The translations under genes and the position numbers were made by a program. Shown piece by piece: positions 6,733 through 18,040 of a stretch of DNA of 64,000 nucleotides (position 1 is its first letter; each line of letters begins with the position of its first letter). This DNA is from a virus, in the IMG/VR virus record IMGVR_UViG_3300031344_000007, positions 7,083-71,082 of that record. The stretch is one strand, 5' to 3'. The notes below the pieces were generated by a model that saw only the letters and a list, made by a program, of their open reading frames with translations, was not told where the DNA came from and ran no database searches.

Positions 6733-7024
6733 TAATTTTAATTTTTTTTGCTAAAAACCATTTACCACCTTGATGTATTGGTCTATTAAATTCTGAATAT
6801 TCTTTCATTTCAACTTTAAGCCAAATTCTATTTTTATTACTTAAATGCGGTGCTTCTGGTTTTTCAGTACAATGCCAAAATGGTCGTACTTTATATCCTT
6901 TAGTCGGATAACAATTTGCTTCTAGCCATGCATTTCTTTTTAATTGTTCCGATTTATTAATAAAAAGTGATGTTATTTCACCAGATTTTAATTCTCTAAA
7001 TAATTTATACGCAATTTTTGACAT
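6719..7024 (-). CDS. Hypothetical protein
   Basis: 101-aa ORF (AYKLFR...WHC..KPEAPHL), TATATTTG promoter upstream. Confidence 0.6.
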   Translation of the reverse strand: MSKIAYKLFRELKSGEITSLFINKSEQLKRNAWLEANCYPTKGYKVRPFWHCTEKPEAPHLSNKNRIWLKVEMKEYSEFNRPIHQGGKWFLAKKIKIIGND

Positions 7025-7103
7025 AATGTTACAAATTTATTTGTTTTTAATATATGCAAATATATAAAAAAATTAAAGAATCACAGAGTATTTATATAAA
7101 ATT

Positions 7104-7550
7104 ATGTTTATGGGTGGTTTAAATATTAATAACTTCATTAAAAAAGAGGTGCAAAATTTTCTAAATGAAGCATCAGTTGTAAAAGATAATAGATTTCATT
7201 TCAATCAAAGATTAAATAATTCTTCATTTTCTAATTATGATACATTTACTTCAGAATTTGATGCAAATATTATTGAAAGTGACATTGTTATAACATGGAT
7301 AGTTTTATTTTGGTTAAATGATATGGGAATTGAAAATTTTGTAATAGAAGTGGAAAAAGCAGAAGGAACATTTACAATTGAAATGCGTGATAAACATAGT
7401 GATGAAATAAAACAAAATACACCAAAAAATATTAATGACTTTAATTGGAAATTTGTTATTGATGATGCTGTTTTACAAAAAAGCGGTTCGTTATATATTT
7501 CAGGATTAGAATTTGATTTTAAATCACAAATTTGTAAATTAAAATTTTAA
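7104..7550 (+). CDS. Hypothetical late protein
   Basis: 148-aa ORF, GTATTTATA at 7088; N-terminal FIKKEVQNFLNE motif. Confidence 0.6.
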   Translation: MFMGGLNINNFIKKEVQNFLNEASVVKDNRFHFNQRLNNSSFSNYDTFTSEFDANIIESDIVITWIVLFWLNDMGIENFVIEVEKAEGTFTIEMRDKHSDEIKQNTPKNINDFNWKFVIDDAVLQKSGSLYISGLEFDFKSQICKLKF

Positions 7551-7569
7551 ATAAAAAAATATAATTATT

Positions 7570-7821
7570 ATGAAAAAAATTTGGGAAGAAATTAAAGCAT
7601 GGTTCATTACAAAATGGACCGCATTAAAAGCATGGTTCATTGCAAAACCATTGGCTTGGATTAAAAAAAATTGGTTTATGATTGTCAATTACATAGTAAT
7701 AGTATTGGCATACAATAATATTTATGGTAAAACTAATGCCGAATTTGCTGAAGTTTTATTAGGACTTTGGATATTTACATCTGTTGCATATGCTGGATGG
7801 AAACTGTTTATAAAAAAATAA
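7570..7821 (+). CDS. Small membrane protein (two TM segments)
   Basis: Amphipathic Trp/Lys-rich N-terminus plus two hydrophobic stretches. Confidence 0.6.
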   Translation: MKKIWEEIKAWFITKWTALKAWFIAKPLAWIKKNWFMIVNYIVIVLAYNNIYGKTNAEFAEVLLGLWIFTSVAYAGWKLFIKK

Positions 7822-7865
7822 ACATGTTGGAATTCTAAATCTGTTATTGATAATGTTTTTATTCG

Positions 7866-7936
7866 TAGCGATAATAAGAATCGAACTTATATGTCCTCCT
7901 TATGAGAGAGTTATCCTACCATTGAATGATATCGCT
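7866..7936 (-). tRNA. tRNA with CAT anticodon (Met, or lysidine-Ile)
   Basis: Acceptor AGCGATA/TATCGCT, loop CT CAT AA, T arm ATAAG-TTCGATT-CTTAT. Confidence 0.82.
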
Positions 7937-7939
7937 ATA

Positions 7940-8269
7940 TTATGTTGAGAATTTAATCTCAACATAAGTTCTTTTGTGTCCAATTCTATGTTCTTCAACA
8001 ATTTTAATTGGTTTTCGCATCCATTGTTTTTTATTTTTAGAAACCAATTTCCAGTTTGGAAATCTTGTATTAGTTCCTTTTCTTTTACCATGACAAGTTT
8101 CCATATCATCGTAAATAATTCCGCCATACCATTTTTTATCATTGTTTTCATTTTGATGATAACCACAGTATGAACAATGAATTTTTCCTGTTTGTTCAAG
8201 ATGCAATTTATATGCACGATTGAATTCACCACGATTTGTGGTTGTTTTAACTAAATTTTTACTTCCCAT
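7940..8269 (-). CDS. Basic hypothetical protein with CxxCxxH
   Basis: 109-aa ORF, IHCSYCGYH, preceded by a uORF and hairpin. Confidence 0.65.
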   Translation of the reverse strand: MGSKNLVKTTTNRGEFNRAYKLHLEQTGKIHCSYCGYHQNENNDKKWYGGIIYDDMETCHGKRKGTNTRFPNWKLVSKNKKQWMRKPIKIVEEHRIGHKRTYVEIKFST

Positions 8270-8292
8270 TTTTCTTGTTACGCTTTAGTGCG

Positions 8293-8319
8293 TTACAAGA
8301 ATTCAAAATTTTTTTTCAT
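8293..8319 (-). CDS. Putative uORF MKKNFEFL
   Basis: Its stop codon lies in the 5' arm of hairpin TTCTTGTAACGC-ACTAAA-GCGTAACAAGAA, which abuts the next ATG. Confidence 0.45.
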   Translation of the reverse strand: MKKNFEFL

Positions 8320-8490
8320 AATTTTATATTTTTGAGATTATATCTTTATGTTCTTTTAATGACCATTCAATACTTTTAAATGTTAATTCCATTATTTCAG
8401 GATTAGCTAAATCAATTTCAGATTCATCAATTTCATCTTCATAATTTTTGAATCTTATTTTACTATTTTTTCTTAATCCAAAATTCATTG

Positions 8491-8979
8491 TTATTCGCTT
8501 TTAATTATTACTGATTTAGTATATTTTTTATCATTCCATTCATCATGCCAACGATTATTAAATTGGTCAAATGTAAATAATTTAATTCCACCAATATATG
8601 GGTCATAAATAAATACTCGAAAATCATCGAAACCAAATACAATACAGTAATGTCCATGACTCCAAGTATTTTTCCAAGATTTTCTATATTCTTTTCTTGC
8701 TTGTAAAAGAACAATTACTGGTTTTTTATTGTTTATTTGATTTTTTAAATATCTTATATTTTTATGTTCTTCTAATTTGGTTTCTAAACCAAATTTTTTT
8801 AGTAAAGTAACTAATTTTTCTGGACATAATCCATCAATTGGTGAAATCTTTGATATCTTTAAAAGTGTATTATAATCAACTTTTATTTTAGAATGTTTTA
8901 AGTGTGACCATGCTACTGCAAGACTACAATCAAAATCATAATTCTGTTCACGCATGGGAATTTGTAATATCATGTACAT
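8491..8979 (-). CDS. Peptidase C39-like cysteine protease
   Basis: Q..DFDCSLA, KPVIV, HGHYCIVFGFD, IYDP. Start trimmed to MYMIL because the longer ORF runs through the tRNA. Confidence 0.8.
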   Translation of the reverse strand: MYMILQIPMREQNYDFDCSLAVAWSHLKHSKIKVDYNTLLKISKISPIDGLCPEKLVTLLKKFGLETKLEEHKNIRYLKNQINNKKPVIVLLQARKEYRKSWKNTWSHGHYCIVFGFDDFRVFIYDPYIGGIKLFTFDQFNNRWHDEWNDKKYTKSVIIKSE

Positions 8980-8997
8980 AAAATTTCCCTCTATTTG

Positions 8998-9080
8998 TTT
9001 CCTTGGTGGGAGTCGAACCCACACGCCCGAAGGCACTCGCTTTTGGGGAGAGCATGTGCTGCCAATTTCATCACAAGGAA
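8998..9080 (-). tRNA. tRNA-Leu(CAA), with C33 and an anticodon-stem mismatch
   Basis: Acceptor TTCCTTG/CAAGGAA, loop CC CAA AA, variable arm GCC-TTCG-GGC. Confidence 0.8.
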
Positions 9081-9081
9081 A

Positions 9082-9198
9082 TTATACTTTTTTCTTTATA
9101 ATTCGTCTATAGTTTATTTTTTTCCTTTCAGTTATTTTAACCGATTTTCCACATCCACAATCATCTTCTTTTTGAAGTGGTTTTCTAATATTTGTCAT
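9082..9198 (-). CDS. 38-aa basic peptide (MTNIRKPLQKEDDCGCGKSVKITERKKINYRRIIKKKV)
   Basis: Below the ORF-track cut-off; has its own GTATTTATA motif at 9207-9215. Confidence 0.5.
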   Translation of the reverse strand: MTNIRKPLQKEDDCGCGKSVKITERKKINYRRIIKKKV

Positions 9199-9357
9199 AA
9201 TTTTAATATAAATACTTGGTTTGTTTATTTGTAGCTCTGACGGGATTTAAACTCTTACGAACTTTTGGTTCAAGTTGTTGTAATAATTTTTCTGCGTTCT
9301 TTCCAATTTGCCACAGTATTATATTTTCATATGAATACTGTGGAATTGGAAATTATG

Positions 9358-9719
9358 TGGTGGAGATGCGGGGCATCGATTCCCCGGTGTTGCAATGTGA
9401 TTAATAAGTTTTCTACAAGTTTATTTGATTTTCATAAATCAGCAAAATGTTAATTGTATTTTTCCAGAACAACTACAAAACTGTCCAGAACTTATTTTAC
9501 TTCCTTTCTGATTTGGGAAGTTTTTTGCTGTTTATTTTTTCCTGTTACGCAATTGAAAGTACGGCACTCTTTACAAATACGCTGTTTCCTTTTGTCAAGG
9601 AAGTAGGAATAGACATAATGTCTTCTGCATTTATTGTTTTGAACCTTTTTAAAGTAGTCCGATTCAACTACTACTTGCTTACATCATTTTTCTACATACA
9701 GTCAAATCCATTCATCCCC
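9358..9719 (-). ncRNA. ssrA: tmRNA
   Basis: 5' GGGGATGAATGGATTTGAC, 3' CATCTCCACCA, G3:U70 pair, resume context ATAAAT-GCA, tag ORF 9628-9545. Confidence 0.93.
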
Positions 9720-9761
9720 ATTATTTTAAAGAACTTTTATTCTAATAATAAATAGTTGTTA

Positions 9762-10487
9762 TTATTTTTTATTTTTCGGTTCTTTTCTAAAACTCCATTT
9801 ATAATCAAAACCGTGTTGTTCAATTTTATATTTATCAGCCACTTCAATAATTTCTTTTTCACCTCTACCAAGAACACCACCAATAAACATACTTATTTCC
9901 TGAAATGCTTGAAAACTATCAAATACTCTATAAAACAGATAATCACTTAAAATTGGATTAATAAAAAGTTTTTCATCACGTCTATAATAATGACCAACAC
10001 TTTTTCTATTATAATCACTATCATAAATAAAAATAGGTGCTTTAAAATCTCTAAATAATTGAAGAGCATCGTAATTTTTAATATAATTATAGTGTTCTTC
10101 AAGATTTCCATACCAACCTTTATTATCAATAATTGTTTTTATTAAATCAAAATCATATGTAATTGTAGTTATAAGTGTTTCTGGATAATCTTTTTTGTTT
10201 TCATAATATAATTTCCAACCAATATATAATTTTCCACAAAATCCAATAATAAAAGAACTACAATTTTGATAATTTTTATATTGTTCATTTTTTATTGTAT
10301 GATTTCCAATATTTAAAAAAGGCGAATCTTTACTTTTTTTAAAAGAAAATCCCTTTCTTTGAAATATTGATGGGAATTTTTTTTCTTCAACCTCAATTAT
10401 TTCACGGTCATAAACAAGTGTCTTATCAATACCCATAGTACCAACAACACCATCGTAAAAATCTTTTTTCTTCGAAATTATTAACAT
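9762..10487 (-). CDS. Conserved-looking phage hypothetical protein
   Basis: 241 aa; KDFYDG, IGFCGKLY, KIEQHGFD..WSFRK. Confidence 0.65.
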   Translation of the reverse strand: MLIISKKKDFYDGVVGTMGIDKTLVYDREIIEVEEKKFPSIFQRKGFSFKKSKDSPFLNIGNHTIKNEQYKNYQNCSSFIIGFCGKLYIGWKLYYENKKDYPETLITTITYDFDLIKTIIDNKGWYGNLEEHYNYIKNYDALQLFRDFKAPIFIYDSDYNRKSVGHYYRRDEKLFINPILSDYLFYRVFDSFQAFQEISMFIGGVLGRGEKEIIEVADKYKIEQHGFDYKWSFRKEPKNKK

Positions 10488-10556
10488 AATTTTACAAATT
10501 TAGTCTATTATATAAATATATGCAAATAAAAAATAAGTTTTATTTAGATATCAAAG

Positions 10557-10639
10557 CACACCGAGAACGATTCGAACGCTCAAAACCATTACTGGTCGCA
10601 CTTTTGGAGAGTGTTTGGCTTACCAATGCCTACCGATGT
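10557..10639 (-). tRNA. tRNA-Trp(CCA) with a long variable arm
   Basis: Acceptor ACATCGG/TCGGTGT, G73, loop CT CCA AA, variable arm ACCA-GTAA-TGGT. Confidence 0.82.
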
Positions 10640-10662
10640 GTATATTACTGAAATAATTTTTG

Positions 10663-10744
10663 TAGCTCTGGTCGGATTCGAACCGACACGCCCGAAGACA
10701 TTTGCTTTTAAGACAAACACGTCTACCAATTCCATCACAGAGCC
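10663..10744 (-). tRNA. tRNA-Leu(TAA)
   Basis: Anticodon arm TTTGT-CT TAA AA-GCAAA, class II variable arm, T arm GTCGG-TTCGAAT-CCGAC. Confidence 0.92.
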
Positions 10745-10750
10745 ATATTG

Positions 10751-10821
10751 TGGATACTTCGGGACTCGAACCCAATCTTCTGAGTGCAAAACAGACGTTC
10801 TTTCCTTTGAACTAAAGACCC
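10751..10821 (-). tRNA. tRNA-Ala(TGC)
   Basis: G3:U70, A73, loop TT TGC AC; some stem mismatches. Confidence 0.8.
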
Positions 10822-10883
10822 ATATTAAATTTCTATGCTTTCCATTACTTGGAACTATGAAATTTTTAACAGTCTTTCTACCG

Positions 10884-10957
10884 TGGAATCGAAGGGCATC
10901 GAACCCTCACTCTCCTGATTGCAGGTCAGGTGCTTTAGCCAGTTAAGCTACGACCCC
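10884..10957 (-). tRNA. tRNA-Ala(TGC), with C33
   Basis: Acceptor GGGGTCG/CGATTCC with G3:U70, anticodon arm CCTGA-CC TGC AA-TCAGG. Confidence 0.88.
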
Positions 10958-10970
10958 AATTATTATTTAG

Positions 10971-11049
10971 TAGCCAAGAAGAGACTCGAACTCTCACCAA
11001 TGATTATGCGTTCTAAGCGCACAGACTTTACCATTTTGTCCACTCGGCT
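10971..11049 (-). tRNA. tRNA-Leu(TAG)
   Basis: Anticodon arm GTGCG-CT TAG AA-CGCAT, T arm GAGAG-TTCGAGT-CTCTT. Confidence 0.88.
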
Positions 11050-11054
11050 AAATG

Positions 11055-11146
11055 TACCCTAAATCCGACTCGAACGGATATTTTAGTTTTCACTAAAAAA
11101 TTGCTTCTTAGACAATCGTGTCTCACTCCAGTTGCACCATTAGGGC
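11055..11146 (-). tRNA. tRNA-Leu(AAG)
   Basis: Acceptor GCCCTAA/TTAGGGT, anticodon arm ATTGT-CT AAG AA-GCAAT, long variable arm. Confidence 0.85.
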
Positions 11147-11251
11147 ATTTAATTATCGGTTGTAGAACAAATATCGCCTTTTTAACCGATAAATATTAAA
11201 TATCGGTAATTAAGGCGATATTATGATTGTATTTGGCACTACAATCTTTTG

Positions 11252-11326
11252 TATTCCCTGTAGGCTTCGAACCTACGACATCTTGCTTGTAGGGCAAGCA
11301 CTCTGACCCATCTGAGTTAAGGGAAT
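11252..11326 (-). tRNA. tRNA-Val(TAC), with C33
   Basis: Acceptor ATTCCCT/AGGGAAT, anticodon arm CTTGC-CC TAC AA-GCAAG. Confidence 0.9.
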
Positions 11327-11426
11327 ATATTTGTTAGTAAAAGCCAGCATTAAATCAAATTTTATATGATAATGTTAGTATTTCTGTAAGTTTTGACATT
11401 ATTTTAATGAATCTTATGTAAAATAA

Positions 11427-12392
11427 TTATTTCCAAACACTATTTCTATTATTACCTTTACCAGCACATTGTCTTGAGCAATATATATTTTTTGATTTAC
11501 ATTGCTTTCCACAGACTTTACAAAAATTAGTTAACTTATTATATGGATTATCATCATATAAATGAATATAATTTTTACCATATTTTTCAATTATATATGA
11601 AAAAATATGTTTTAGTTCGTTTTTTTTCATAACAATTAATGGTTTTTTAAAAGAATTATATTTTAAAATATCTTTTTTCCTTTCATATCCTTTTATTTCA
11701 TAATAAACATTGTCGATAATAAAATCAGGATAATATTTGTGTTTTATATTATCAATGTAATATTCGAATCCATTATTATTTCTTTCAAAAATAATTTTAT
11801 GGTCTATATTATAGATAACAAATGCTAATTCATAACTACTATCACACCAATATCCTTTATACCAACCAGATTTACCTCTACCAGAACCTTTTCTATAACC
11901 ACCCTTACTAACACCTCTATATTTACAATTTTTATCATTACAATAACATTTTTTTGAACAATATATTCTATTATTTCCAGATTCTCTCACCCAAAAATCA
12001 TTTTTACAAATAGGACAAGTTTTTAATATTCTTTTATTTAAATTTTTTTGTACCCACCTTTTATTTTTATCGTGTAACAAATAATTTTTTTTATTAATAA
12101 AACCTATTTTAAGTTTTGTTTCTTCACTATGTTTTCTAGTGTTTGCACAACTTCTTGAACAAAAATATTTTTCTTTTTTTGGAATATTAACGTTATATTC
12201 ACTAATTTCAAATTCGCTTTTACATGTAAAACATTTAACTTTAAAAATTTTCCATTTGTTTAAAACAGTTATTTTTTGTTTTTCAATACTTTCTAATGTA
12301 GGAATATATTTTGTAGGGTTGTGTTTATTTCTACATTTTGAATTACAATATTTATTTTTTACTTCTTTACCACAATTTAAACATTTATTCAT
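11427..12392 (-). CDS. Free-standing PD-(D/E)XK endonuclease with Cys-rich Zn fingers and a NUMOD3-like motif
   Basis: DSSYE...YYPDF...YEIKG; repeated CxxC..(Y/F)CSxxC; HSEETKLKI. Confidence 0.78.
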   Translation of the reverse strand: MNKCLNCGKEVKNKYCNSKCRNKHNPTKYIPTLESIEKQKITVLNKWKIFKVKCFTCKSEFEISEYNVNIPKKEKYFCSRSCANTRKHSEETKLKIGFINKKNYLLHDKNKRWVQKNLNKRILKTCPICKNDFWVRESGNNRIYCSKKCYCNDKNCKYRGVSKGGYRKGSGRGKSGWYKGYWCDSSYELAFVIYNIDHKIIFERNNNGFEYYIDNIKHKYYPDFIIDNVYYEIKGYERKKDILKYNSFKKPLIVMKKNELKHIFSYIIEKYGKNYIHLYDDNPYNKLTNFCKVCGKQCKSKNIYCSRQCAGKGNNRNSVWK

Positions 12393-12467
12393 ATATAATA
12401 TTTTATATAAATACTATATACTCTTAAAAAGAATCGAAATTGTTTAATTAGAATGATTTAAATTTTG

Positions 12468-12551
12468 TACTGCATGAGGAATTCGAATCCTGCGAAGCCT
12501 TTCGGCACTTGCTTGAGAGGCAAGTCGCTTTAACCACTTGCATAATGCAGC
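12468..12551 (-). tRNA. tRNA-Glu(CTC) with a long variable arm
   Basis: Acceptor GCTGCAT/ATGCAGT, A73, anticodon arm CTTGC-CT CTC AA-GCAAG, variable arm GCC-GAAA-GGC. Confidence 0.82.
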
Positions 12552-12630
12552 AAATTAATTATTTCGTTTTTCTATTATTAATTCATTCAATTTTAAAAAC
12601 AATATAACAAATAGTTATCTTAATTATCAA

Positions 12631-12683
12631 TGCTGAGAACGTAGAATGAGAATCTTTTGTCCTAACCATTAGACGAACCGAGC
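12631..12683 (-). pseudogene. Truncated conventional tRNA-Glu(CTC) remnant
   Basis: GCTCGGT TCGTCTAATGGTTAGGAC...AGA-TT CTC AT-TCT; T arm missing. Confidence 0.6.
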
Positions 12684-12687
12684 ATTT

Positions 12688-13083
12688 CTATTTAAATTGT
12701 TTTGGAAGTAAAAAATGCTTATATTGAAAATGAATTTTAGGTTTAAGTGATGTTTCAAAAAATTCTCCTTGTTCTTTCATATCTTCATCATCTTCTTCAT
12801 ATTTCCAAACAACTAAAATATTGGTAAGGGATTTTGCAACTTTTTGTAATATATTAAAAAGTGCTTTATTTGATGATGAATTAATATATTCAAATTCACA
12901 AGTAATTGTTAAATCAACATCTGAATGGTTTTTAATAAATTCATCTAATGCTTTATCAATATTATCAAAGAACATTAAGGAATTCTCAGGAAATGATTTT
13001 CCAGTTATTGTAAGAATACCTCTTTTAATATTAAAAAAAACTGCGGGTGTGTTGTTCGTTGCATTAATATACAAATTTTCCAT
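12688..13083 (-). CDS. SiaC-family (DUF1987) phosphoprotein
   Basis: ATNNTPAV, GKSFPEN, EYINSSSNK, WKYEEDDEDMKEQGE. Start set at MENLY because the upstream extension overlaps the tRNA. Confidence 0.8.
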   Translation of the reverse strand: MENLYINATNNTPAVFFNIKRGILTITGKSFPENSLMFFDNIDKALDEFIKNHSDVDLTITCEFEYINSSSNKALFNILQKVAKSLTNILVVWKYEEDDEDMKEQGEFFETSLKPKIHFQYKHFLLPKQFK

Positions 13084-13112
13084 AATTAAAATTAGTTTTA
13101 ATTTAACATTTG

Positions 13113-13196
13113 TACAGCGTGTGGGATTCGAACCCAGCGAAACCTTTCGGTACAAGATTGAAGGTCTTGCCACTTTAACCGCTTGTATAACGCTGC
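13113..13196 (-). tRNA. tRNA-Glu(TTC) with a long variable arm and C33
   Basis: Acceptor GCAGCGT/ACGCTGT, A73, anticodon arm CAAGA-CC TTC AA-TCTTG, variable arm ACC-GAAA-GGT. Confidence 0.82.
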
Positions 13197-13200
13197 ATAA

Positions 13201-13294
13201 AATATTAATGTCGCTCTTCCTTGCTGAGTCGTACACCTAATTCAGAATTTTCATCTGAGGTCACAAGAATCGAACTTGCGTCCACATTAATATT
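13201..13294 (-). ncRNA. Circularly permuted tRNA-mimic RNA (YrlA-like order: T arm, closed acceptor, D arm)
   Basis: Terminal 11-bp stem AATATTAATGT/ACATTAATATT encloses GCAAG-TTCGATT-CTTGT, a closed acceptor-like stem and CTC-AGCAAGGAA-GAG. Confidence 0.65.
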
Positions 13295-13298
13295 TTGC

Positions 13299-13369
13299 CG
13301 AGACTGAGAGATTCGAACTCTAACCCACTGCGTGACAGGCAGTTATACTAGCCATTATACTACAGCCTC
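13299..13369 (-). tRNA. tRNA-Asp(GTC)
   Basis: Anticodon arm ACTGC-CT GTC AC-GCAGT, G73, T stem apparently 4 bp. Confidence 0.88.
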
Positions 13370-13382
13370 GAAAATTTCCAAC

Positions 13383-13395
13383 ATGTCAAAGAACA
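13383..13395 (-). promoter_or_regulatory. boxA-like antitermination site TGTTCTTTGACAT
   Basis: Resembles rrn boxA (TGCTCTTTAACA); similar GTTCTTTRA at 9724-9735 and 15263-15274. Confidence 0.55.
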
Positions 13396-13432
13396 TTATA
13401 CGAACAATATTAATTTTTGTTACATTCTTTTC

Positions 13433-13473
13433 AAAAAAAAATCTCGACCATTTTTAAGTGGTCGAGATTTTTT
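13433..13473 (-). terminator. Attenuator terminator of tRNA operon 2
   Basis: AAAAAATCTCGACCA-CTTAAAAA-TGGTCGAGATTTTTTTTT; 5' arm complementary to TGGTCGAGA in the leader. Confidence 0.88.
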
Positions 13474-13490
13474 CATTAAGAAAGGAAATA

Positions 13491-13586
13491 TTATCTTTCT
13501 CGACCAAATATAACAATATCTTCTGCATCTGCCCATAATAGGACAACTGCCATCTCTGATACTAATATGTCGAGTAATCTTTTCAT
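13491..13586 (-). CDS. Leader peptide 2 (MKRLLDILVSEMAVVLLWADAEDIVIFGRER)
   Basis: 31-codon ORF between a TATCTTTG promoter (13642-13649) and the terminator. Confidence 0.8.
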   Translation of the reverse strand: MKRLLDILVSEMAVVLLWADAEDIVIFGRER

Positions 13587-13678
13587 TATTTTTTAATTAT
13601 TAAATTTGTTTTACTAACTTCGTTTAATTCTAAATACGTTGCAAAGATATAAAATGTTACAATATATACAAACTTTTT

Positions 13679-14050
13679 TTAAAATATTTTTTTATAAGTA
13701 TCAAATAATGATTTAATATTTCGACTTCCAACCGGATTCATTGAGTGTATTAGAATTGTTTTAGGTATTTCTAATTTATTGTCAATACAATAATATATTA
13801 ACCATTTAGCACAATGATAACCAGTTTTTTCTGGATTATCATCATAATTAGCAACTCTTTCATAATCAATATAATTAAGGTCATGGTCAAAACTAATAGT
13901 TTCTGGAATACCATTTTCTTGAATCATTTTTACAAACTCATCATAATTTCTTACAATTTTCCAATCAAGAATATTATATGTTGGATTCCCTAAATAATAA
14001 AAAGAATCTACAGGTTCTCTGAAGTCATCGAGATAAAGATTATATATCAT
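13679..14050 (-). CDS. Cyclic-phosphate-processing receiver-like domain protein
   Basis: LYLDDFR, ISFDHDL, TGYHCAKWL, IHSMNPVG motifs. Confidence 0.72.
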   Translation of the reverse strand: MIYNLYLDDFREPVDSFYYLGNPTYNILDWKIVRNYDEFVKMIQENGIPETISFDHDLNYIDYERVANYDDNPEKTGYHCAKWLIYYCIDNKLEIPKTILIHSMNPVGSRNIKSLFDTYKKIF

Positions 14051-14117
14051 AATTTTTAATTATTAATTTGCAAAGATAATAAAAAAATAGATTAAATTTT
14101 ATAAAAAATATAAATAG

Positions 14118-14188
14118 TTCCCTTATTAGGATTTGAACCTAAATATTCATTTTCAGAGAATGAAATGTTACCATTACATCATAAGGAA
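14118..14188 (-). tRNA. tRNA-Gln(CTG)
   Basis: U1:A72 acceptor TTCCTTA/TAAGGGA, anticodon arm TCATT-CT CTG AA-AATGA. Confidence 0.88.
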
Positions 14189-14194
14189 ATATTG

Positions 14195-14267
14195 TTGCCA
14201 TGTACAGATTCGAACTGTAACTAATTGATTCAAAGTCAATTGTGCTAATCCATTACACAACAAGGCA
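14195..14267 (-). tRNA. tRNA-Gln(TTG)
   Basis: Anticodon arm ATTGA-CT TTG AA-TCAAT, T arm TACAG-TTCGAAT-CTGTA. Confidence 0.9.
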
Positions 14268-14273
14268 ATATTG

Positions 14274-14345
14274 GGGGTGATGAGGTATTTGAAACCTCCC
14301 CGACAGAATCACAATCTGGCATGCTACCGCTACACCAATCATCCC
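14274..14345 (-). tRNA. tRNA-His(GTG)
   Basis: Encoded G-1 and C73, loop TT GTG AT. Confidence 0.88.
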
Positions 14346-14352
14346 ATATAAA

Positions 14353-15201
14353 TTATATATTATTATAATATTCTAAAAATTTATTTATTTCATTCTTTAT
14401 ATATTGTTTACCATTTTCAGTATTAATATTTTTCCATTTTATTCTATAAACAACGTATCCATTATCATTTAATATTTTATCTCTAATTACATCATGTTCT
14501 TTTCTATAATTATGTTGTTTACCATCAATTTCTAAATCAATATTTTTATCTTCAATATAAAAATCTAAAAAATAATTACATGAATCGGTTAAGCCTAAAT
14601 TTCTTTTATTTACTGGATAATTATGTTTATAACCAATATTATTATTTTTTAGTACATTAATAAAAAACCGTTCAGGATAACTAATAATATTTCTTGCTGT
14701 CCAACCTTTATGAATACCATTTGCAATTCTTTTATTTATAAAATCTTTAGTATTATTACTTTTTAATTTTAAATGGCATTCTTTTGAACAACATTTAGAT
14801 TTACTTGGTTTTCCACTTAAACATTTTTGAGAAATAAATTCATTTTTACATATTACACATATTTTTTTAGTTTCACGATTAACTTTATTATTAATAAATC
14901 TATTGTTTAATAATGAATCACTTATTTTATTTTTTGTTTCGTTACTTAATTTTCTTTTTTTATTATTAAATGTTGCAGCACATGAACTATTACAAAATTT
15001 GTTTCTACTATTTATTTTTTTATTACAATTTAAACAATATTTTATTTTTTTATTAAAATGTGATACATTAATATCATTTTCTAATATAAATTCGTTTAAT
15101 TCTTCATATACTCTAGCATTTGAAAATCCAAAATATTTTAATAATATTTCATTTTTAGATTTAGATGTTTCAATAATCTCAATTAATTTTTTTTCACACA
15201 C
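14353..15201 (-). CDS. Free-standing DUF559/Vsr-like endonuclease with Zn-finger and NUMOD3-like motifs
   Basis: YFLDF...LEIDGKQH...HDVIRDKIL...GYVVYRIKW. Confidence 0.78.
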   Translation of the reverse strand: MCEKKLIEIIETSKSKNEILLKYFGFSNARVYEELNEFILENDINVSHFNKKIKYCLNCNKKINSRNKFCNSSCAATFNNKKRKLSNETKNKISDSLLNNRFINNKVNRETKKICVICKNEFISQKCLSGKPSKSKCCSKECHLKLKSNNTKDFINKRIANGIHKGWTARNIISYPERFFINVLKNNNIGYKHNYPVNKRNLGLTDSCNYFLDFYIEDKNIDLEIDGKQHNYRKEHDVIRDKILNDNGYVVYRIKWKNINTENGKQYIKNEINKFLEYYNNI

Positions 15202-15345
15202 AATATTTAAATTTATTATAAATACTGTGGATGTCGAAAAAATACGAGTTGAACTATAGGTATTTCAAAGAACTTTGCTAAATTTTTAGTTAACCTTTTG
15301 GTTATGCAGTGATTACTACGTGCAAGTAATTTAACATCAATCACT

Positions 15346-15430
15346 TCGGGGTGACACGGTTCGAACGTGCGAGGGATTTCTCCACCTGCTTCCAAGGCAG
15401 GACTGCTACCAACTACAGACCTACACCCCG
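15346..15430 (-). tRNA. tRNA-Pro(TGG) with a long variable arm
   Basis: Acceptor CGGGGTG/CACCCCG, A73, anticodon arm CCTGC-CT TGG AA-GCAGG, variable arm GGA-GAAA-TCC. Confidence 0.85.
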
Positions 15431-15441
15431 ATATATATAAT

Positions 15442-15470
15442 AAAAAACCCCATTCGTTTGAATGGGGTCT
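15442..15470 (-). terminator. Attenuator terminator of tRNA operon 3
   Basis: AGACCCCATTC-AAAC-GAATGGGGTTTTTT; 5' arm complementary to TGAATGGGG in the leader. Confidence 0.88.
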
Positions 15471-15499
15471 ACTAATTGCTCTCTCACTTCTTAAAAAAC

Positions 15500-15568
15500 T
15501 TAAGCATAGTTTCCCCATTCAGTCACCTGTGGATGTTGTTGGGGGTTAATATGCATTAAATTTTTCAT
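15500..15568 (-). CDS. Leader peptide 3 (MKNLMHINPQQHPQVTEWGNYA)
   Basis: 22-codon ORF between a TATATTTG promoter (15606-15613) and the terminator; PQQHPQ run. Confidence 0.85.
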   Translation of the reverse strand: MKNLMHINPQQHPQVTEWGNYA

Positions 15569-15792
15569 AACTAAAATTTTATAACTATGTTTAACAAAAT
15601 CATTGCAAATATATGCATTAAAATTATAAATACAAGCATTTTTTAAAAAAATTTTTATTAATAAGAAAAAATGTGTGAATCATGTAACATATTATCGGAA
15701 ATGTGTAACCTTTTTTAAATACCCTAAATGTATTTATTAGTGTTAGATAGCCACATTTTTCAATAAAAATTTAACACCAATAAAATAAATCA

Positions 15793-16212
15793 ATGAAAAC
15801 TACTAAACAAATTTGGACGCTTGAAGCTCTTAAGGAGCATTATGATATTGTATTGAAAAATCAATATGAACACTATAATGTATTGCTTGCTGAACGAGAT
15901 GAACGAGTAACACAAAGATATCAAGCAATGGAATTGGCAGTAAATAAAGCAGAAACTGCAACTGAAAAGCGTTTTGAAGGTGTAAACGAATTTCGTGCAC
16001 AACTTGGTGACCAGTCAAGAACACTTATGCCACGTATTGAAACAGAAGTGTTATTAAAAAATGCTAACGATAAAATTGACGCACTTACAATTAAAGTTGA
16101 AAAAAGCGAAAATATTAAAGCAGGTGGAAATACAGTAATTGCATATATTGTTGCTGGTATATCATTAATTGTAACACTTATTACATTATTGGGAAAATTT
16201 AAAATAATATAA
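15793..16212 (+). CDS. Coiled-coil protein with C-terminal TM helix
   Basis: AVNKAETATEKRFEGVNEFR, hydrophobic C-terminus. Confidence 0.65.
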   Translation: MKTTKQIWTLEALKEHYDIVLKNQYEHYNVLLAERDERVTQRYQAMELAVNKAETATEKRFEGVNEFRAQLGDQSRTLMPRIETEVLLKNANDKIDALTIKVEKSENIKAGGNTVIAYIVAGISLIVTLITLLGKFKII

Positions 16213-16234
16213 AAAAAATTGATTATAATTAAAA

Positions 16235-16387
16235 ATGAAAATTAATATAGATAATGTTAATATGCCATATGAGTCATATGAAGTACATTCACTTAAAATT
16301 CTCAATAAAATAAAAACTGATTTAGTTTTACGACTTAAATATATTAATGAACGAATTATAAATTTAATAAAGAAAGAAAATGAGTAA
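16235..16387 (+). CDS. Small hypothetical protein (50 aa)
   Basis: MKINIDNVNMPYESYEV..., fills the gap and overlaps the next start. Confidence 0.45.
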   Translation: MKINIDNVNMPYESYEVHSLKILNKIKTDLVLRLKYINERIINLIKKENE

Positions 16388-16805
16388 TAATGAAAAAAAT
16401 TATGATGATATTCTATTAATTGAGAATATGACATTAAATGAATTTGATGTGAAGTTTATTAAAAATTTATTAATACGTCAGGATGAAATAAAGGAAATGG
16501 AATTATCAAATATGTTAAAAAATAATGTAGATACTATTGTTAATGCAATTATTACCGAATTAAATAGTAGAGAAGAAAGAATATTTGATGCATTAAAGTA
16601 TCAAGAAAATAAAGTACATAATGCATTAAAAATTCAAGAAGATAAAGTACATGATGCAGTAAAAGAACAAGAAATTAAGGTTCTTGCAGCAGTAAAAAAT
16701 CAAGAAGATAAAGTATTAAGGGCTTTAAAAGAACAAGAAGATAAAGTATTAAAGGCTTTAAAAGAACAAGAAGATAAAGTATTAAAGGCAATTAATGGTC
16801 AATAA
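16380..16805 (+). CDS. Coiled-coil protein with 11-aa tandem repeats
   Basis: About six copies of QEDKVxxAxKx. Confidence 0.65.
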   Translation: MSNNEKNYDDILLIENMTLNEFDVKFIKNLLIRQDEIKEMELSNMLKNNVDTIVNAIITELNSREERIFDALKYQENKVHNALKIQEDKVHDAVKEQEIKVLAAVKNQEDKVLRALKEQEDKVLKALKEQEDKVLKAINGQ

Positions 16806-16810
16806 ATAAT

Positions 16811-18040
16811 TTGAAAATGAAAAATTCCATTAGAATACTTTTATTGGAAAATTCCAATGTTCAAGCAAAGACGATACTTCAATTATTAAGAAACGGTGAA
16901 AACAATATATCAGTATTGATTGCCGAAAACAGAAAATCTTATATTGAATTATTAAATGATAATGCTATTGATATTATCATATGTAATCATGTATTACCAG
17001 AAGGTTTCAATTCATTAGAAGCAATGAGAATTGCTAAGAATATTTATCCAAATATTCCATGTATATTACTTTCAGGGTCAATTAATGATGATTTTGCTAT
17101 CGAGTTACTTAAAGAAGGATTTGATGATTACGTTAGTAATGACCATTTATTCTTTTTACCATTTTCAATTGAAAACGTTTTTCTTAAATATTCATATAAG
17201 GCAGAAATTACTAAATTAGAATCTGAAATCAAAATATTGCAAGAATCTTATAATATAATTGATGATGAGAAAAGAAGTATGACACAAAGTATTATTTTTG
17301 CTGAAAGAATTCAAAGTTTAACATTACCCAAAATTGATTTATTACTTAATAATTTCAAAGAAGCATTTATATATTATAAACCAAAAGATATTGTAAGTGG
17401 AGATTTTTATTGGTTTTCAGCAGATGGTGATAATGTTGTTATTGTGGTTGCCGATTGTACTGGACATGGTGTATCTGGTTCATTATTAGCCATGCTTGGT
17501 TCTAATTTTTTAAATGAAATTGTTGAAAATGAAAATAATTATGATAATCCAACAGATATACTTATAAAACTTGATGCTAATCTTTGTAAAGTATTAAAAC
17601 AATCAGTAGAGAATAATTATCAAGATGGAATTGATTTAGCTTTAATTTCCATTAATAAAAAAGAAAAGAAAATACGTTTTAGTGGATGTAATGGTTCATT
17701 ATTATATATTATGAAAGGTCAAAAGAAAATCAACATATATAAAGGAAATTCATATTTAATTGGTGGTATTGATTATTATAGTATTAATAAAAAATTTGTT
17801 ACAGAAGAAATAAATTATGAAACAGGTGATGTAATTTATATGCACACAGATGGATATGTTGACCAATTTGGTGGAGATAATAATAAAAAATTTAATAAAA
17901 ATGTTTTTTATAATTTATTATGTTCATTTCAACATTTAAGTTTACAATATCAATGTCAATTAATCGAACAAAGATTATTAAAATGGAAAGGTTGTTTCCC
18001 ACAAACAGATGATATTTTAGTTGTTGGCATTAAATTATAA
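16811..18040 (+). CDS. Receiver-like domain fused to a SpoIIE/PP2C phosphatase
   Basis: KPKDIVSGDFYW, ADCTGHGVSG, DGIDLA, TDGYVDQFGG, QTDDILVVG. Confidence 0.88.
   Translation: MKMKNSIRILLLENSNVQAKTILQLLRNGENNISVLIAENRKSYIELLNDNAIDIIICNHVLPEGFNSLEAMRIAKNIYPNIPCILLSGSINDDFAIELLKEGFDDYVSNDHLFFLPFSIENVFLKYSYKAEITKLESEIKILQESYNIIDDEKRSMTQSIIFAERIQSLTLPKIDLLLNNFKEAFIYYKPKDIVSGDFYWFSADGDNVVIVVADCTGHGVSGSLLAMLGSNFLNEIVENENNYDNPTDILIKLDANLCKVLKQSVENNYQDGIDLALISINKKEKKIRFSGCNGSLLYIMKGQKKINIYKGNSYLIGGIDYYSINKKFVTEEINYETGDVIYMHTDGYVDQFGGDNNKKFNKNVFYNLLCSFQHLSLQYQCQLIEQRLLKWKGCFPQTDDILVVGIKL

What the first reader, a model, noticed from the sequence alone, without database searches (positions are those of the whole stretch)
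15442..15568. Attenuator 3: PQQHPQ sensor for the Pro-His-Gln-Gln operon
Six consecutive codons CCC CAA CAA CAT CCA CAG plus an earlier CAT match Pro(TGG), His(GTG), Gln(TTG) and Gln(CTG), the only four tRNAs downstream. CCCCA in the control codons pairs with TGGGG, and TGAATGGGG pairs with the terminator arm CCCCATTCA. This is the cleanest of the three cases.
Basis: partly seen in the sequence, partly recalled or inferred. Interest (0 to 1): 0.9.

Follow-up and report, generated by a model that had tools for sequence, protein, structure and literature searches.

The report
Leader-peptide attenuator gating phage tRNA genes
A giant phage puts a tiny test gene, spelled in proline, glutamine and histidine codons, and a switchable transcription stop in front of its Pro, His and Gln tRNA genes, so it probably makes them only when ribosomes run short of them.

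Summary
A Bacteroidetes-type TAnnTTTG motif precedes a 22-codon ORF (15568..15500) with the codon run P-Q-Q-H-P-Q. An intrinsic terminator (15470..15445) follows, then 10 nt later tRNA-Pro, and further on His, Gln and Gln.

An 8-9 nt copy of the terminator's 3' arm lies inside the ORF and can act as an antiterminator.

Pattern scans of public viral and metagenome contigs gave 54 distinct versions of this leader.
- All keep the reading frame despite lengths of 22-25 codons.
- P, Q and H stay fixed while third codon positions vary.
- 52 of 54 stand in front of Pro/His/Gln tRNA arrays.
- The only two leaders with CGN arginine codons are the only two whose array also holds tRNA-Arg(NCG).

The same phages carry three sister leaders (Y/K, D/E/V/L/A/W/M, T/C/N/I/S/F/G/R). 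Each matches its own tRNA block, and together they cover all 20 amino acids.

My reading is a trp/his-style ribosome-mediated attenuator, here controlling tRNA genes. There is no bench or transcript evidence. Nine full-text searches found no published account. Earlier AI notes of this scan describe the same thing on other phage DNA.

The parts
15603..15613 (-). Promoter-like motif TATATTTGCAA (TAnnTTTG, the Bacteroidetes -7 type; the consensus is recalled, not tested)
   Evidence: 5 matches to TANNTTTGCAA in the window against 3.9 expected, so it is not enriched as a count. Three of the five lie about 35-45 nt upstream of the three leader ORFs. TAnnTTTG occurs upstream of 53 of 54 leader-3 versions; the one without has only 21 nt of flank.
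15500..15568 (-). Leader ORF, 22 codons plus TAA
   Evidence: The frame is kept in 54 of 54 relatives at lengths of 22-25 codons. No Pfam or PHROG family matches it.
15527..15544 (-). Control codons CCC CAA CAA CAT CCA CAG (P Q Q H P Q). An extra His codon lies at 15551-15553.
   Evidence: In 33 leaders of 24 codons, codons 9-15 are invariant P Q P Q Q H P apart from one Q-to-R at codon 10, and codons 9, 11, 12, 13 and 16 vary synonymously.
15556..15566 (-). 5' strand of the start:stop helix (GAAAAATTTAA, includes the G of ATG)
   Evidence: helix 1: 11 pairs, 95.4% of cells paired, 3 pairs with changes on both sides; at least 9 consecutive pairs in 46 of 54 versions, with several compensated variants.
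15493..15503 (-). 3' strand of the start:stop helix (covers the TAA stop and the T run after it)
15528..15533 (-). 5' strand of the protector (1:2) hairpin, inside the control codons CAT CCA CAG
   Evidence: RNAalifold consensus. helix 2: 5 pairs, 95.7% paired, 1 pair with changes on both sides in 2 sequences.
15513..15521 (-). Segment 2, the antiterminator TGAATGGGG (codons T-E-W-G). It copies the terminator's 3' arm and also supplies the 3' strand of the protector (15512-15517).
   Evidence: Read directly from the sequence. GAATGGGG pairs with CCCCATTC over 8 pairs in 14 of 14 sequences. All 8 pairs are invariant, so covariation cannot be tested.
15445..15470 (-). Intrinsic terminator hairpin (5' arm 15470-15460, loop 15459-15456, 3' arm 15455-15445), with the T run extending to 15442
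   Evidence: helix 3: 10 pairs, 100% paired in 14 sequences, 2 pairs with changes on both sides.
15345..15431 (-). tRNA-Pro(UGG), 87 nt with a long variable arm. It starts 10 nt after the T run, leaving no room for a promoter of its own.
   Evidence: ARAGORN; Rfam tRNA, 40.2 bits
14353..15201 (-). Inserted homing-endonuclease-like ORF (DUF559, NUMOD3) between tRNA-Pro and tRNA-His. It is not part of the ancestral operon.
   Evidence: It is absent in L002, where Pro and His lie 110 nt apart. A contig joins 14366 to 15257, skipping 890 nt.
14117..14344 (-). tRNA-His(GUG) 14344-14273, tRNA-Gln(UUG) 14267-14194, tRNA-Gln(CUG) 14188-14117

Best explanation
This is a ribosome-mediated (leader-peptide) transcription attenuator that gates the phage's Pro-His-Gln tRNA operon.

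Inferred mechanism. Host RNA polymerase starts at the TAnnTTTG promoter and transcribes a 22-codon leader. If the ribosome reads the P-Q-Q-H-P-Q codons quickly, it runs on towards the stop codon and covers the antiterminator segment (GAAUGGGG). The terminator hairpin then forms and transcription stops 10 nt before tRNA-Pro. If Pro-, Gln- or His-tRNA is scarce, the ribosome stalls on the control codons. That melts the protector pairing and leaves GAAUGGGG free to pair with CCCCAUUC, the terminator's 5' arm. The polymerase then reads through into the tRNA genes. The result would be negative feedback: the phage makes these tRNAs only when decoding of their codons is slow.

A helix that joins the start-codon region to the stop-codon region probably limits ribosome loading to the moment of transcription.

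What is shown by sequence comparison: the anatomy, the translation-type conservation, the linkage to the tRNA arrays, and the tracking of array content by leader codons. What is inferred: termination at this site, stalling, the direction of the switch, and the role of the start:stop helix.
For: (1) Anatomy is as described. The terminator ends 10 nt before tRNA-Pro, so the tRNA can only be reached by read-through.

(2) Pattern scans of viral, metagenome and genome contigs gave 54 distinct leader sequences. Of 73 strict-pattern matches in L083-L153, 69 carry the in-frame ORF; the other 4 come from 2 unrelated palindromic loci.

(3) Translation signature. The start motif is in frame with the antiterminator in 54 of 54 versions at lengths of 22, 23, 24 and 25 codons (9, 11, 33 and 1 versions). 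In 33 leaders of 24 codons, P/H/Q fill 279 of 297 positions in codons 8-16, with synonymous variation such as CCG 24, CCA 5, CCC 3, CCT 1 at codon 11 and CAA 21, CAG 12 at codon 12. The conserved non-control residues (MKNL, EWG, YA-stop) coincide with the RNA helices.

(4) Linkage. In 50 of 54 versions the array begins with tRNA-Pro and continues with Pro/His/Gln only. In 2 it begins with Arg, then Pro-His-Gln. In 2 a gene is inserted and no tRNA was found in the flank held.

(5) Natural experiments. CGN codons occur only in L104/L042 (CGT twice; array Arg-UCG, Arg-ACG, Pro, His, Gln, Gln) and in L102 (CGA twice; array Arg-ACG, Pro, His, Gln). That is 2 of 2 against 0 of 52, Fisher p = 7e-4. 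The other 11 leaders with Arg use AGA or AGG, outside the control core.

(6) Four leader classes occur in the same genomes, and each is enriched only for the amino acids of its own tRNA block. In G000 the figures are c3 7/21 (background 0.081, p = 9e-4), c2 20/30 (p = 1e-4), c1 9/29 (p = 0.02) and c4 36/41 (p = 2e-8), with off-diagonal cells not enriched. In 17 of 18 class-1 leader rows the array that follows is Tyr/Lys (one has a Leu-UAA at its end); the 18th has only 18 nt of flank.

(7) RNA structure. The combined structure of start:stop helix, protector and terminator is 97.2% paired, with 6 pairs changed on both sides against 1.5 +/- 1.0 in shuffles (0 of 500 as high). The class-2 antiterminator helix is 95.2% paired, with 3 pairs (6 cells) compensated and 0 of 500 shuffles reaching the covariation score.

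(8) Constrained folding at the decision point. With an assumed footprint from P-site -15 to +14, the antiterminator forms (6-8 of its 8 pairs, all 8 in 12 of the 14) in 14 of 14 leaders when the A site sits on any control codon but the last one or two. It forms in none once the ribosome is past the control run.
Against: - There is no experimental or transcript evidence. The one RNA run found has no contig over the leader.
- In class 3 the antiterminator and its partner are invariant, so that helix has no covariation support of its own. One half of it was also fixed by my search pattern.
- Without a ribosome, the minimum-energy fold at the decision point already shows the antiterminator in 4 of 14 leaders (L002, L042, L045, L055). 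The default-off state is therefore not uniform in the model.
- L106 keeps a His codon, but no tRNA-His was found within the 7 kb of flank held downstream.
- 52 of the 152 Pro codons are CCC, which is not a Watson-Crick match to anticodon UGG.
- The sequences are related, so the counts are not independent events. The Arg association rests on two lineages.
- The count of terminator-like sites in 7000-17000 (4) is not above shuffles (2.7 +/- 1.5).
Confidence: 0.78

Rival explanations
1. The leader is translated and switches the terminator, but it reports general translation capacity (ribosome availability, or coupling of translation to transcription) rather than the supply of Pro/His/Gln-tRNA specifically.
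For: In the folding model a stall at any codon before the end of the control run gives the antiterminator. The start:stop helix suggests a link to the timing of ribosome loading. In Anabaena a tRNA array is induced by general translational stress, although through a repressor (abstract of PMC10272220; passages of PMC8421152).
Against: It does not explain why four leaders in one genome are each written in the amino acids of their own tRNA block, with no off-diagonal enrichment. It also does not explain why CGN codons appear only where tRNA-Arg(NCG) joined the array.
Confidence: 0.1
2. The ORF encodes a conserved micro-protein with a function of its own, followed by an ordinary, partly leaky terminator. 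The tRNAs are made by constitutive read-through, and the codon match is a by-product.
For: The peptide is conserved in 54 versions. Small phage proteins are common. No termination or regulation data exist.
Against: The conserved residues outside the P/Q/H run coincide with RNA helices (MKNL and YA-stop with the start:stop helix, EWG with the antiterminator). The P/Q/H segment changes in order and number (for example PQQHPQ, PQPQQHPQ, PQHQPQ, PHPQQP) while its composition is kept, which is not how a folded or binding peptide usually evolves. An 8-9 nt copy of each terminator's 3' arm lies inside each of the leader ORFs of different sequence, and in class 2 it co-varies with the terminator.
Confidence: 0.07
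3. It is an untranslated structured RNA, either a small RNA with its own terminator or an RNA-only switch such as a T-box-like tRNA sensor. The ORF is then incidental.
For: The region folds strongly (z = -4.44). The start codon lies inside a helix.
Against: No Rfam family reaches its threshold on the leader; the best non-tRNA hit has E = 0.71 and lies far below its gathering score. The frame is kept across indels in 54 of 54 versions, and third-position variation leaves the amino acids fixed, which an untranslated RNA would not show.
Confidence: 0.03

Closest known systems
Leader-peptide attenuators of enterobacterial amino-acid operons (trpL, hisL, pheL, leuL; the multivalent thrL and ilvL). 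The mechanism as stated in the introduction of PMC3082878 (passage read) and in the abstract of PMC1183508 (search listing only).
   Same: A short promoter-proximal ORF with a run of regulatory codons, a protector (1:2), antiterminator (2:3) and terminator (3:4) set of alternative pairings, and a ribosome stall that selects read-through. Several amino acids are sensed at once, as in thrL and ilvL (that detail is recalled).
   Different: The regulated product is a set of tRNA genes, not biosynthetic enzymes, so the leader senses the molecule the operon makes. The element is in a phage, with a Bacteroidetes-type promoter and no Shine-Dalgarno sequence. An extra start:stop helix is present. No Rfam leader family matches.
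pheM leader of the pheST operon (phenylalanyl-tRNA synthetase), controlled by attenuation
   Same: A gene of the translation apparatus is controlled by a leader peptide that senses the supply of charged tRNA.
   Different: Its target is a synthetase, it senses one amino acid, and it is a bacterial chromosomal gene.
T-box riboswitches
   Same: A terminator/antiterminator switch in a leader that responds to tRNA status and controls translation-related genes.
   Different: A T-box binds uncharged tRNA directly and is not translated. Here no T-box model matches and the conservation is codon-wise.
The long tRNA array (trn operon) of Anabaena PCC 7120, induced under translational stress (PMC8421152, passages read; PMC10272220, abstract read)
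   Same: An accessory tRNA array that is kept silent and is switched on when translation is impaired.
   Different: It is controlled at the promoter by the repressor TrcR acting on direct repeats. The words 'leader peptide', 'attenuat' and 'terminator' occur 0 times in PMC8421152. It responds to general stress, not to particular codons.

Membership tests
Ribosome-mediated (leader-peptide) transcription attenuator | A short ORF with a start codon lies just downstream of a promoter and upstream of the regulated genes | tested here: met
   ORF 15568..15500. The TAnnTTTG motif lies 34 nt upstream and is present in 53 of 54 relatives.
Ribosome-mediated (leader-peptide) transcription attenuator | A run of regulatory codons cognate to what the operon supplies | tested here: met
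   PQQHPQ against Pro, His, Gln, Gln. P/H/Q fill 279 of 297 positions in codons 8-16 of 33 leaders. The 4x4 matrix is enriched on the diagonal only. CGN codons occur only with tRNA-Arg(NCG).
Ribosome-mediated (leader-peptide) transcription attenuator | An intrinsic terminator between the leader ORF and the regulated genes | tested here: met
   The helix is 100% paired in 14 sequences, with 2 compensated pairs. Function as a terminator was not tested.
Ribosome-mediated (leader-peptide) transcription attenuator | An antiterminator pairing that is mutually exclusive with the terminator | tested here: met
   9 bp in the window and 8 bp in 14 of 14 sequences. It is invariant, so this class offers no covariation. 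The sister class 2 has 3 compensated pairs.
Ribosome-mediated (leader-peptide) transcription attenuator | A protector or pause hairpin (1:2) that involves the control codons | tested here: met
   UCC.AC with GU.GGA, 95.7% paired, 1 pair compensated. The pausing role was not tested.
Ribosome-mediated (leader-peptide) transcription attenuator | The leader is translated | tested here: inconclusive
   Indirect evidence only: the frame is kept in 54 of 54 versions, and synonymous variation occurs with fixed amino acids. No ribosome profiling or peptide data exist.
Ribosome-mediated (leader-peptide) transcription attenuator | Read-through rises when the cognate charged tRNA is limiting | not testable with these tools
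   This needs coupled transcription-translation assays or in-vivo reporters.
Described Rfam leader families (His_leader, Trp_leader, Thr_leader, Leu_leader and others) and the T-box | A match to the covariance model at the gathering score | tested here: not met
   nothing on the leader reaches a gathering score.

The most novel reading that the evidence does not exclude
The four leaders together form a complete decoding-capacity gauge that covers all 20 amino acids. Each tRNA block of these 330-360-kb phages would be transcribed only when ribosomes slow on its own codons. The phage could then rebuild exactly the part of the tRNA pool that is depleted during infection, for example by host anticodon nucleases or by the phage's own shut-off of the host. 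This would be a self-tuning counter-defence circuit and the first case of tRNA genes controlled by leader-peptide attenuation.
Probability: 0.35. Interest if true: 0.95.

Novelty: new variant of a known kind. Interest (0 to 1): 0.88.

Why it matters
Leader-peptide attenuation is a textbook mechanism, but it is known for amino-acid biosynthesis genes and a synthetase operon. I found no account of it for tRNA genes.

Here the sensed molecule and the product are the same. That closes a direct feedback loop on decoding capacity, codon family by codon family.

It would explain how large phages with 50-60 tRNA genes avoid making them needlessly. It would also tie phage tRNA arrays to tRNA depletion during infection.

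The leaders could serve as compact, portable, codon-specific sensors of tRNA supply.

The element is widespread. I found 54 distinct versions of this one leader in sludge, sediment, peat and lake metagenomes. It also comes with natural experiments, such as the Arg codons that track the Arg tRNAs, which make the idea directly testable.

Tried and rejected
- blastn of 15200-16300 against the phage collection found no match.
- RNA evidence. One metatranscriptome run (X1) and two runs of unknown kind hold parts of 13000-16500. When laid, the RNA run has no contig over the leader, and its contig begins inside tRNA-Pro. Nothing can be said about termination from this. Run X3 holds a relative's leader with a 6-nt in-frame insertion.
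- From memory I expected E. coli tRNA-Phe genes to carry an attenuator-like leader. blastn with a phage tRNA-Phe against E. coli genomes found nothing. The pheV upstream region of MG1655 shows no short ORF with a Phe run and no terminator before the tRNA, so I dropped that lead. pheU was not examined.
- Pfam and PHROGs have no family for the 22-aa peptide or for the neighbouring 139-aa ORF.
- Rfam at E <= 10 over 15330-15720 gives only weak chance-level hits besides the tRNA.
- The genome-contig scan gave only the 362,763-bp phage contig filed inside a MAG, plus one unrelated palindrome. No bacterial chromosome copy was found with that exact pattern.
- Literature: full-text searches gave no paper on leader-peptide control of tRNA genes. 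Papers in subscription journals are not in the library.
- I considered and rejected chance, a micro-protein gene, and an untranslated RNA (see the rival explanations).

Full report
CONTEXT. The window is bases 7083-71082 of a 71,082-bp IMG/VR virus record that CheckV rates 22% complete. It has 27% G+C. All 19 tRNA genes in the window lie on the minus strand, and a tmRNA lies among them. Relatives with complete genomes measure 362,763 and 327,244 bp and carry 55-59 tRNA matches. This is therefore the tRNA island of a jumbo phage.

OBSERVATION. Everything below is read on the minus strand.
- TATATTTGCAA lies at 15613..15603.
- A 34-nt A/T-rich leader follows.
- The 22-codon ORF 15568..15500 (MKNLMHINPQQHPQVTEWGNYA) has codons 9-14 = CCC CAA CAA CAT CCA CAG and a further CAT at codon 6.
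- After a 29-nt spacer comes an intrinsic-terminator-like hairpin at 15470..15445 (11 pairs, 5 G-C, loop of 4) with a T run.
- Ten nucleotides later, tRNA-Pro(UGG) begins.
- The tRNAs that follow, before the next promoter and leader, are His(GUG), Gln(UUG) and Gln(CUG).
- TGAATGGGG (15521..15513) repeats the terminator's 3' arm, so it complements CCCCATTCA (15467..15459).

The 169-nt stretch folds at -42.7 kcal/mol against -26.2 +/- 3.7 for shuffles (z = -4.44, 0 of 200 shuffles as good). Among 526 ATG ORFs of 15-60 codons in the contig, one has a run of six residues from P/H/Q, matching the leader's PQQHPQ.

RELATIVES. The neighbouring 139-aa ORF brought in a close relative (L002-L006, 92% identity) and a more distant one (L007, 69%). 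Both have Pro-His-Gln arrays and the same leader, but with two extra in-frame codons. I then ran three scans for a pattern taken from the 3' end of the leader:
- viral contigs, 33 stretches;
- metagenome contigs, with the terminator arm added to the pattern, 69 stretches;
- genome contigs, 2 stretches.

Together these gave 54 distinct leader ORF sequences. Of 73 strict-pattern matches in L083-L153, 69 carry the in-frame ORF. The other four belong to two unrelated palindromic loci.

IS IT TRANSLATED? The conserved start motif is in frame with the antiterminator in 54 of 54 versions, although lengths are 22, 23, 24 or 25 codons (9, 11, 33 and 1 versions). In the 33 leaders of 24 codons, codons 9-15 read P Q P Q Q H P without exception, apart from one Q-to-R. 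Third positions vary freely where no helix constrains them:
- codon 9: CCC 29, CCG 2, CCA 1, CCT 1;
- codon 11: CCG 24, CCA 5, CCC 3, CCT 1;
- codon 12: CAA 21, CAG 12;
- codon 16: CAG 21, CAA 8.

CAT CCA, which forms the protector strand, is invariant. Across the 54 versions the order and number of P, Q and H change, while each leader keeps 6-11 of them. The other conserved residues are explained by RNA: MKNL and YA-stop form a helix, and EWG is the antiterminator. This is the pattern expected of regulatory codons. It is not the pattern of a structured peptide or of an untranslated RNA.

LINKAGE TO THE tRNAs. In 50 of 54 versions the array after the terminator starts with tRNA-Pro and holds only Pro, His and Gln genes. 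In two it starts with Arg and continues Pro-His-Gln. In two (L121, L142) another gene is inserted and no tRNA lies in the flank held.

The two arrays with Arg are the only two leaders with CGN codons. L104/L042 has CGT twice, before Arg(UCG), Arg(ACG), Pro, His, Gln, Gln. L102 has CGA twice, replacing two CAA codons, before Arg(ACG), Pro, His, Gln. All other arginines in the family are AGA or AGG, outside the control core. The table is 2/0/0/52, Fisher p = 7e-4, not corrected for relatedness. The two leaders differ strongly from each other, so they look like separate events.

One exception goes the other way. L106 keeps a His codon, but no tRNA-His was found within the 7 kb of flank held downstream.

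SISTER LEADERS. A terminator and ORF scan of eight tRNA islands found the same layout four times per genome. The layout is a TAnnTTTG motif, a short ORF, a copy of the terminator's 3' arm inside or at the end of the ORF, a terminator, and then tRNAs.
- Class 3: P/H/Q.
- Class 2: leaders rich in D, E, V, L, A, W and M, before Asp, Glu, Val, Leu, Ala, Trp and Met tRNAs.
- Class 1: ..YYYGKKSYKK.., before Tyr and Lys tRNAs.
- Class 4: rich in T, C, N, I, S, F, G and R, before Thr, Cys, Asn, Ile, Ser, Phe, Gly and Arg tRNAs. In this genome it lies in the 7 kb before the window.

The four sets partition the 20 amino acids. In the 4x4 tables for G000, G003 and G004 only the diagonal is enriched over the phage's own protein composition. 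For G000 the diagonal reads 7/21 (p = 9e-4), 20/30 (p = 1e-4), 9/29 (p = 0.02) and 36/41 (p = 2e-8).

A scan for the class-1 motif gave 30 stretches and 18 leader rows. Seventeen are followed by Tyr/Lys arrays (one with a Leu-UAA at the end), and one has only 18 nt of flank. Five stretches had no in-frame ATG, and one was an 83-aa ORF.

RNA STRUCTURE. On 14 class-3 leaders (alignment A1) RNAalifold finds the terminator and a protector hairpin. The protector pairs UCC.AC, within CAT CCA CAG, with GU.GGA of the antiterminator. I added a helix between the start region (GAAAAATTTAA) and the stop region (TTAA.TTTTT.).

The combined structure is 97.2% paired. It has 6 pairs changed on both sides against 1.5 +/- 1.0 in shuffles (0 of 500 as high), and it falls to 63-65% paired when slid by one column. 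In the 54 versions the start:stop helix has at least 9 consecutive pairs in 46, with compensated variants.

The antiterminator GAATGGGG:CCCCATTC is present in 14 of 14 but is invariant, and half of it was fixed by my pattern. It therefore has no covariation of its own. The class-2 antiterminator does co-vary with its terminator arm. It has 9 pairs, 95.2% paired, 3 pairs (6 cells) compensated, three pair types at one position, and 0 of 500 shuffles reaching the covariation score.

MODEL CHECK. I folded each of the 14 leaders up to the base before the terminator's 3' arm, with the bases under a ribosome held unpaired. The footprint, P-site -15 to +14, is an assumption. With the A site on any control codon except the last one or two, the antiterminator forms in all 14 (6-8 of its 8 pairs, all 8 in 12 of the 14). 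Once the A site is beyond the control run, and up to the stop codon, it forms in none. Without a ribosome, segment 2 is held elsewhere in 10 of 14, but the antiterminator is already the best fold in 4 of 14.

The geometry therefore fits stall = read-through and smooth translation = termination. The model also predicts read-through for stalls at the earlier K, N, L, I and V codons.

WHAT IT IS NOT. No Rfam family, including the described leader families and the T-box, reaches its threshold on the leader. No Pfam or PHROG family fits the peptide.

COMPARISON WITH WHAT IS KNOWN. The logic is that of trpL, hisL and pheL (mechanism as described in PMC3082878, passage read) and of multivalent leaders such as thrL and ilvL (recalled). 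The differences are these:
- the regulated genes are tRNAs;
- the element sits in a phage, with Bacteroidetes-type promoter motifs;
- there is a start:stop helix;
- a set of four leaders spans all amino acids.

The nearest functional analogue in print that I could find is the Anabaena trn array. It is induced by translational stress, but through the repressor TrcR acting on promoter repeats. The 2021 paper does not mention attenuation.

Nine full-text searches found no paper on leader-peptide control of tRNA genes. Supplements and subscription journals could not be searched.

Earlier AI notes of this scan report the same phenomenon on other phage genomes. I treat them as agreement, not as evidence.

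VERDICT. I place about 0.78 on a codon-specific, ribosome-mediated attenuator that gates the Pro-His-Gln tRNA operon. The open points are all functional: real termination, real stalling, and the direction and dynamic range of the switch.

Noticed in passing
window 15345-15431 (-); also 13112-13196, 12467-12551, 10556-10639: tRNA-Pro(UGG) is 87 nt long with a long variable arm. The two tRNA-Glu genes (85 nt) and tRNA-Trp (84 nt) are also over-long. The whole-window Rfam scan missed several of them at the gathering score, although tRNA-Pro scores 40.2 bits in a local scan. Long-arm Pro tRNAs of 95-97 nt recur at the head of the array in relatives.
   Followed up: no
window 14353-15201 (-): A 282-aa ORF with DUF559 (E = 5e-10) and weak NUMOD3 and HNH-family hits sits between tRNA-Pro and tRNA-His. 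It is absent from the close relative L002 and from a contig that joins 14366 to 15257. It looks like a homing-endonuclease insertion inside the operon. Similar insertions follow the leader in L121 and L142.
   Followed up: partly
window 12965-12973, 13386-13394, 15265-15273 (all -): GTTCTTTGA occurs three times in the window, against 0.8 expected, and only inside the tRNA island. It recurs a few to about 35 nt upstream of tRNAs in relatives (sequences printed). It may be an internal promoter or a processing signal. If it is a promoter, it would bypass the attenuators for some tRNAs.
   Followed up: partly
window about 13470-13480 (-) and alignment A2 columns about 137-146: An invariant TCCTTTCTT lies between the stop codon of the class-2 leader and its terminator in 7 of 7 phages. 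It resembles the pyrimidine-rich 3' end of 16S rRNA (recalled). Its role is unknown.
   Followed up: no
alignment A1 columns about 160-172; window 15471-15490 is the divergent counterpart: A spacer motif TTAGGTTARACA lies between the class-3 leader's stop codon and its terminator. Most relatives keep it, but the window does not. Its function is unknown; it may be a pause site.
   Followed up: no
G000 contig about 661-789 (-), 6.3 kb before the window start: A fourth leader of 42 codons, with 36 of 41 residues from T/C/N/I/S/F/G/R, has its own antiterminator copy and terminator and stands in front of Cys, Ile and Ser tRNAs.
   Followed up: yes
G003 (L072) and G004 (L073) tRNA islands: ARAGORN calls a tRNA with anticodon CUA ('Pyl(cta)'), an amber-suppressor-like tRNA, at the far end of the class-4 array in both complete genomes. 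This hints at possible TAG recoding in this phage group.
   Followed up: no
L152 (genome contigs): The complete 362,763-bp phage contig (the same length as the contig behind L052 and G003) is filed in the genome collection as a scaffold of a 'Candidatus Paceibacterota' MAG. This is probably a binning artefact. The promoter motifs point to a Bacteroidota-type host instead.
   Followed up: no
window 13679-14050 (-) and 9358-9719 (-): A cyclic-phosphate-processing receiver-domain protein (cREC_REC, E = 3e-23) and a tmRNA (68.4 bits) lie inside the tRNA island. Both are RNA-repair or translation-rescue functions placed next to the attenuated operons.
   Followed up: no
L106: In one relative the array after the P/Q/H leader holds only Pro and Gln tRNAs, with no tRNA-His in the 7 kb of flank held, yet the leader keeps its His codon.
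   Followed up: partly
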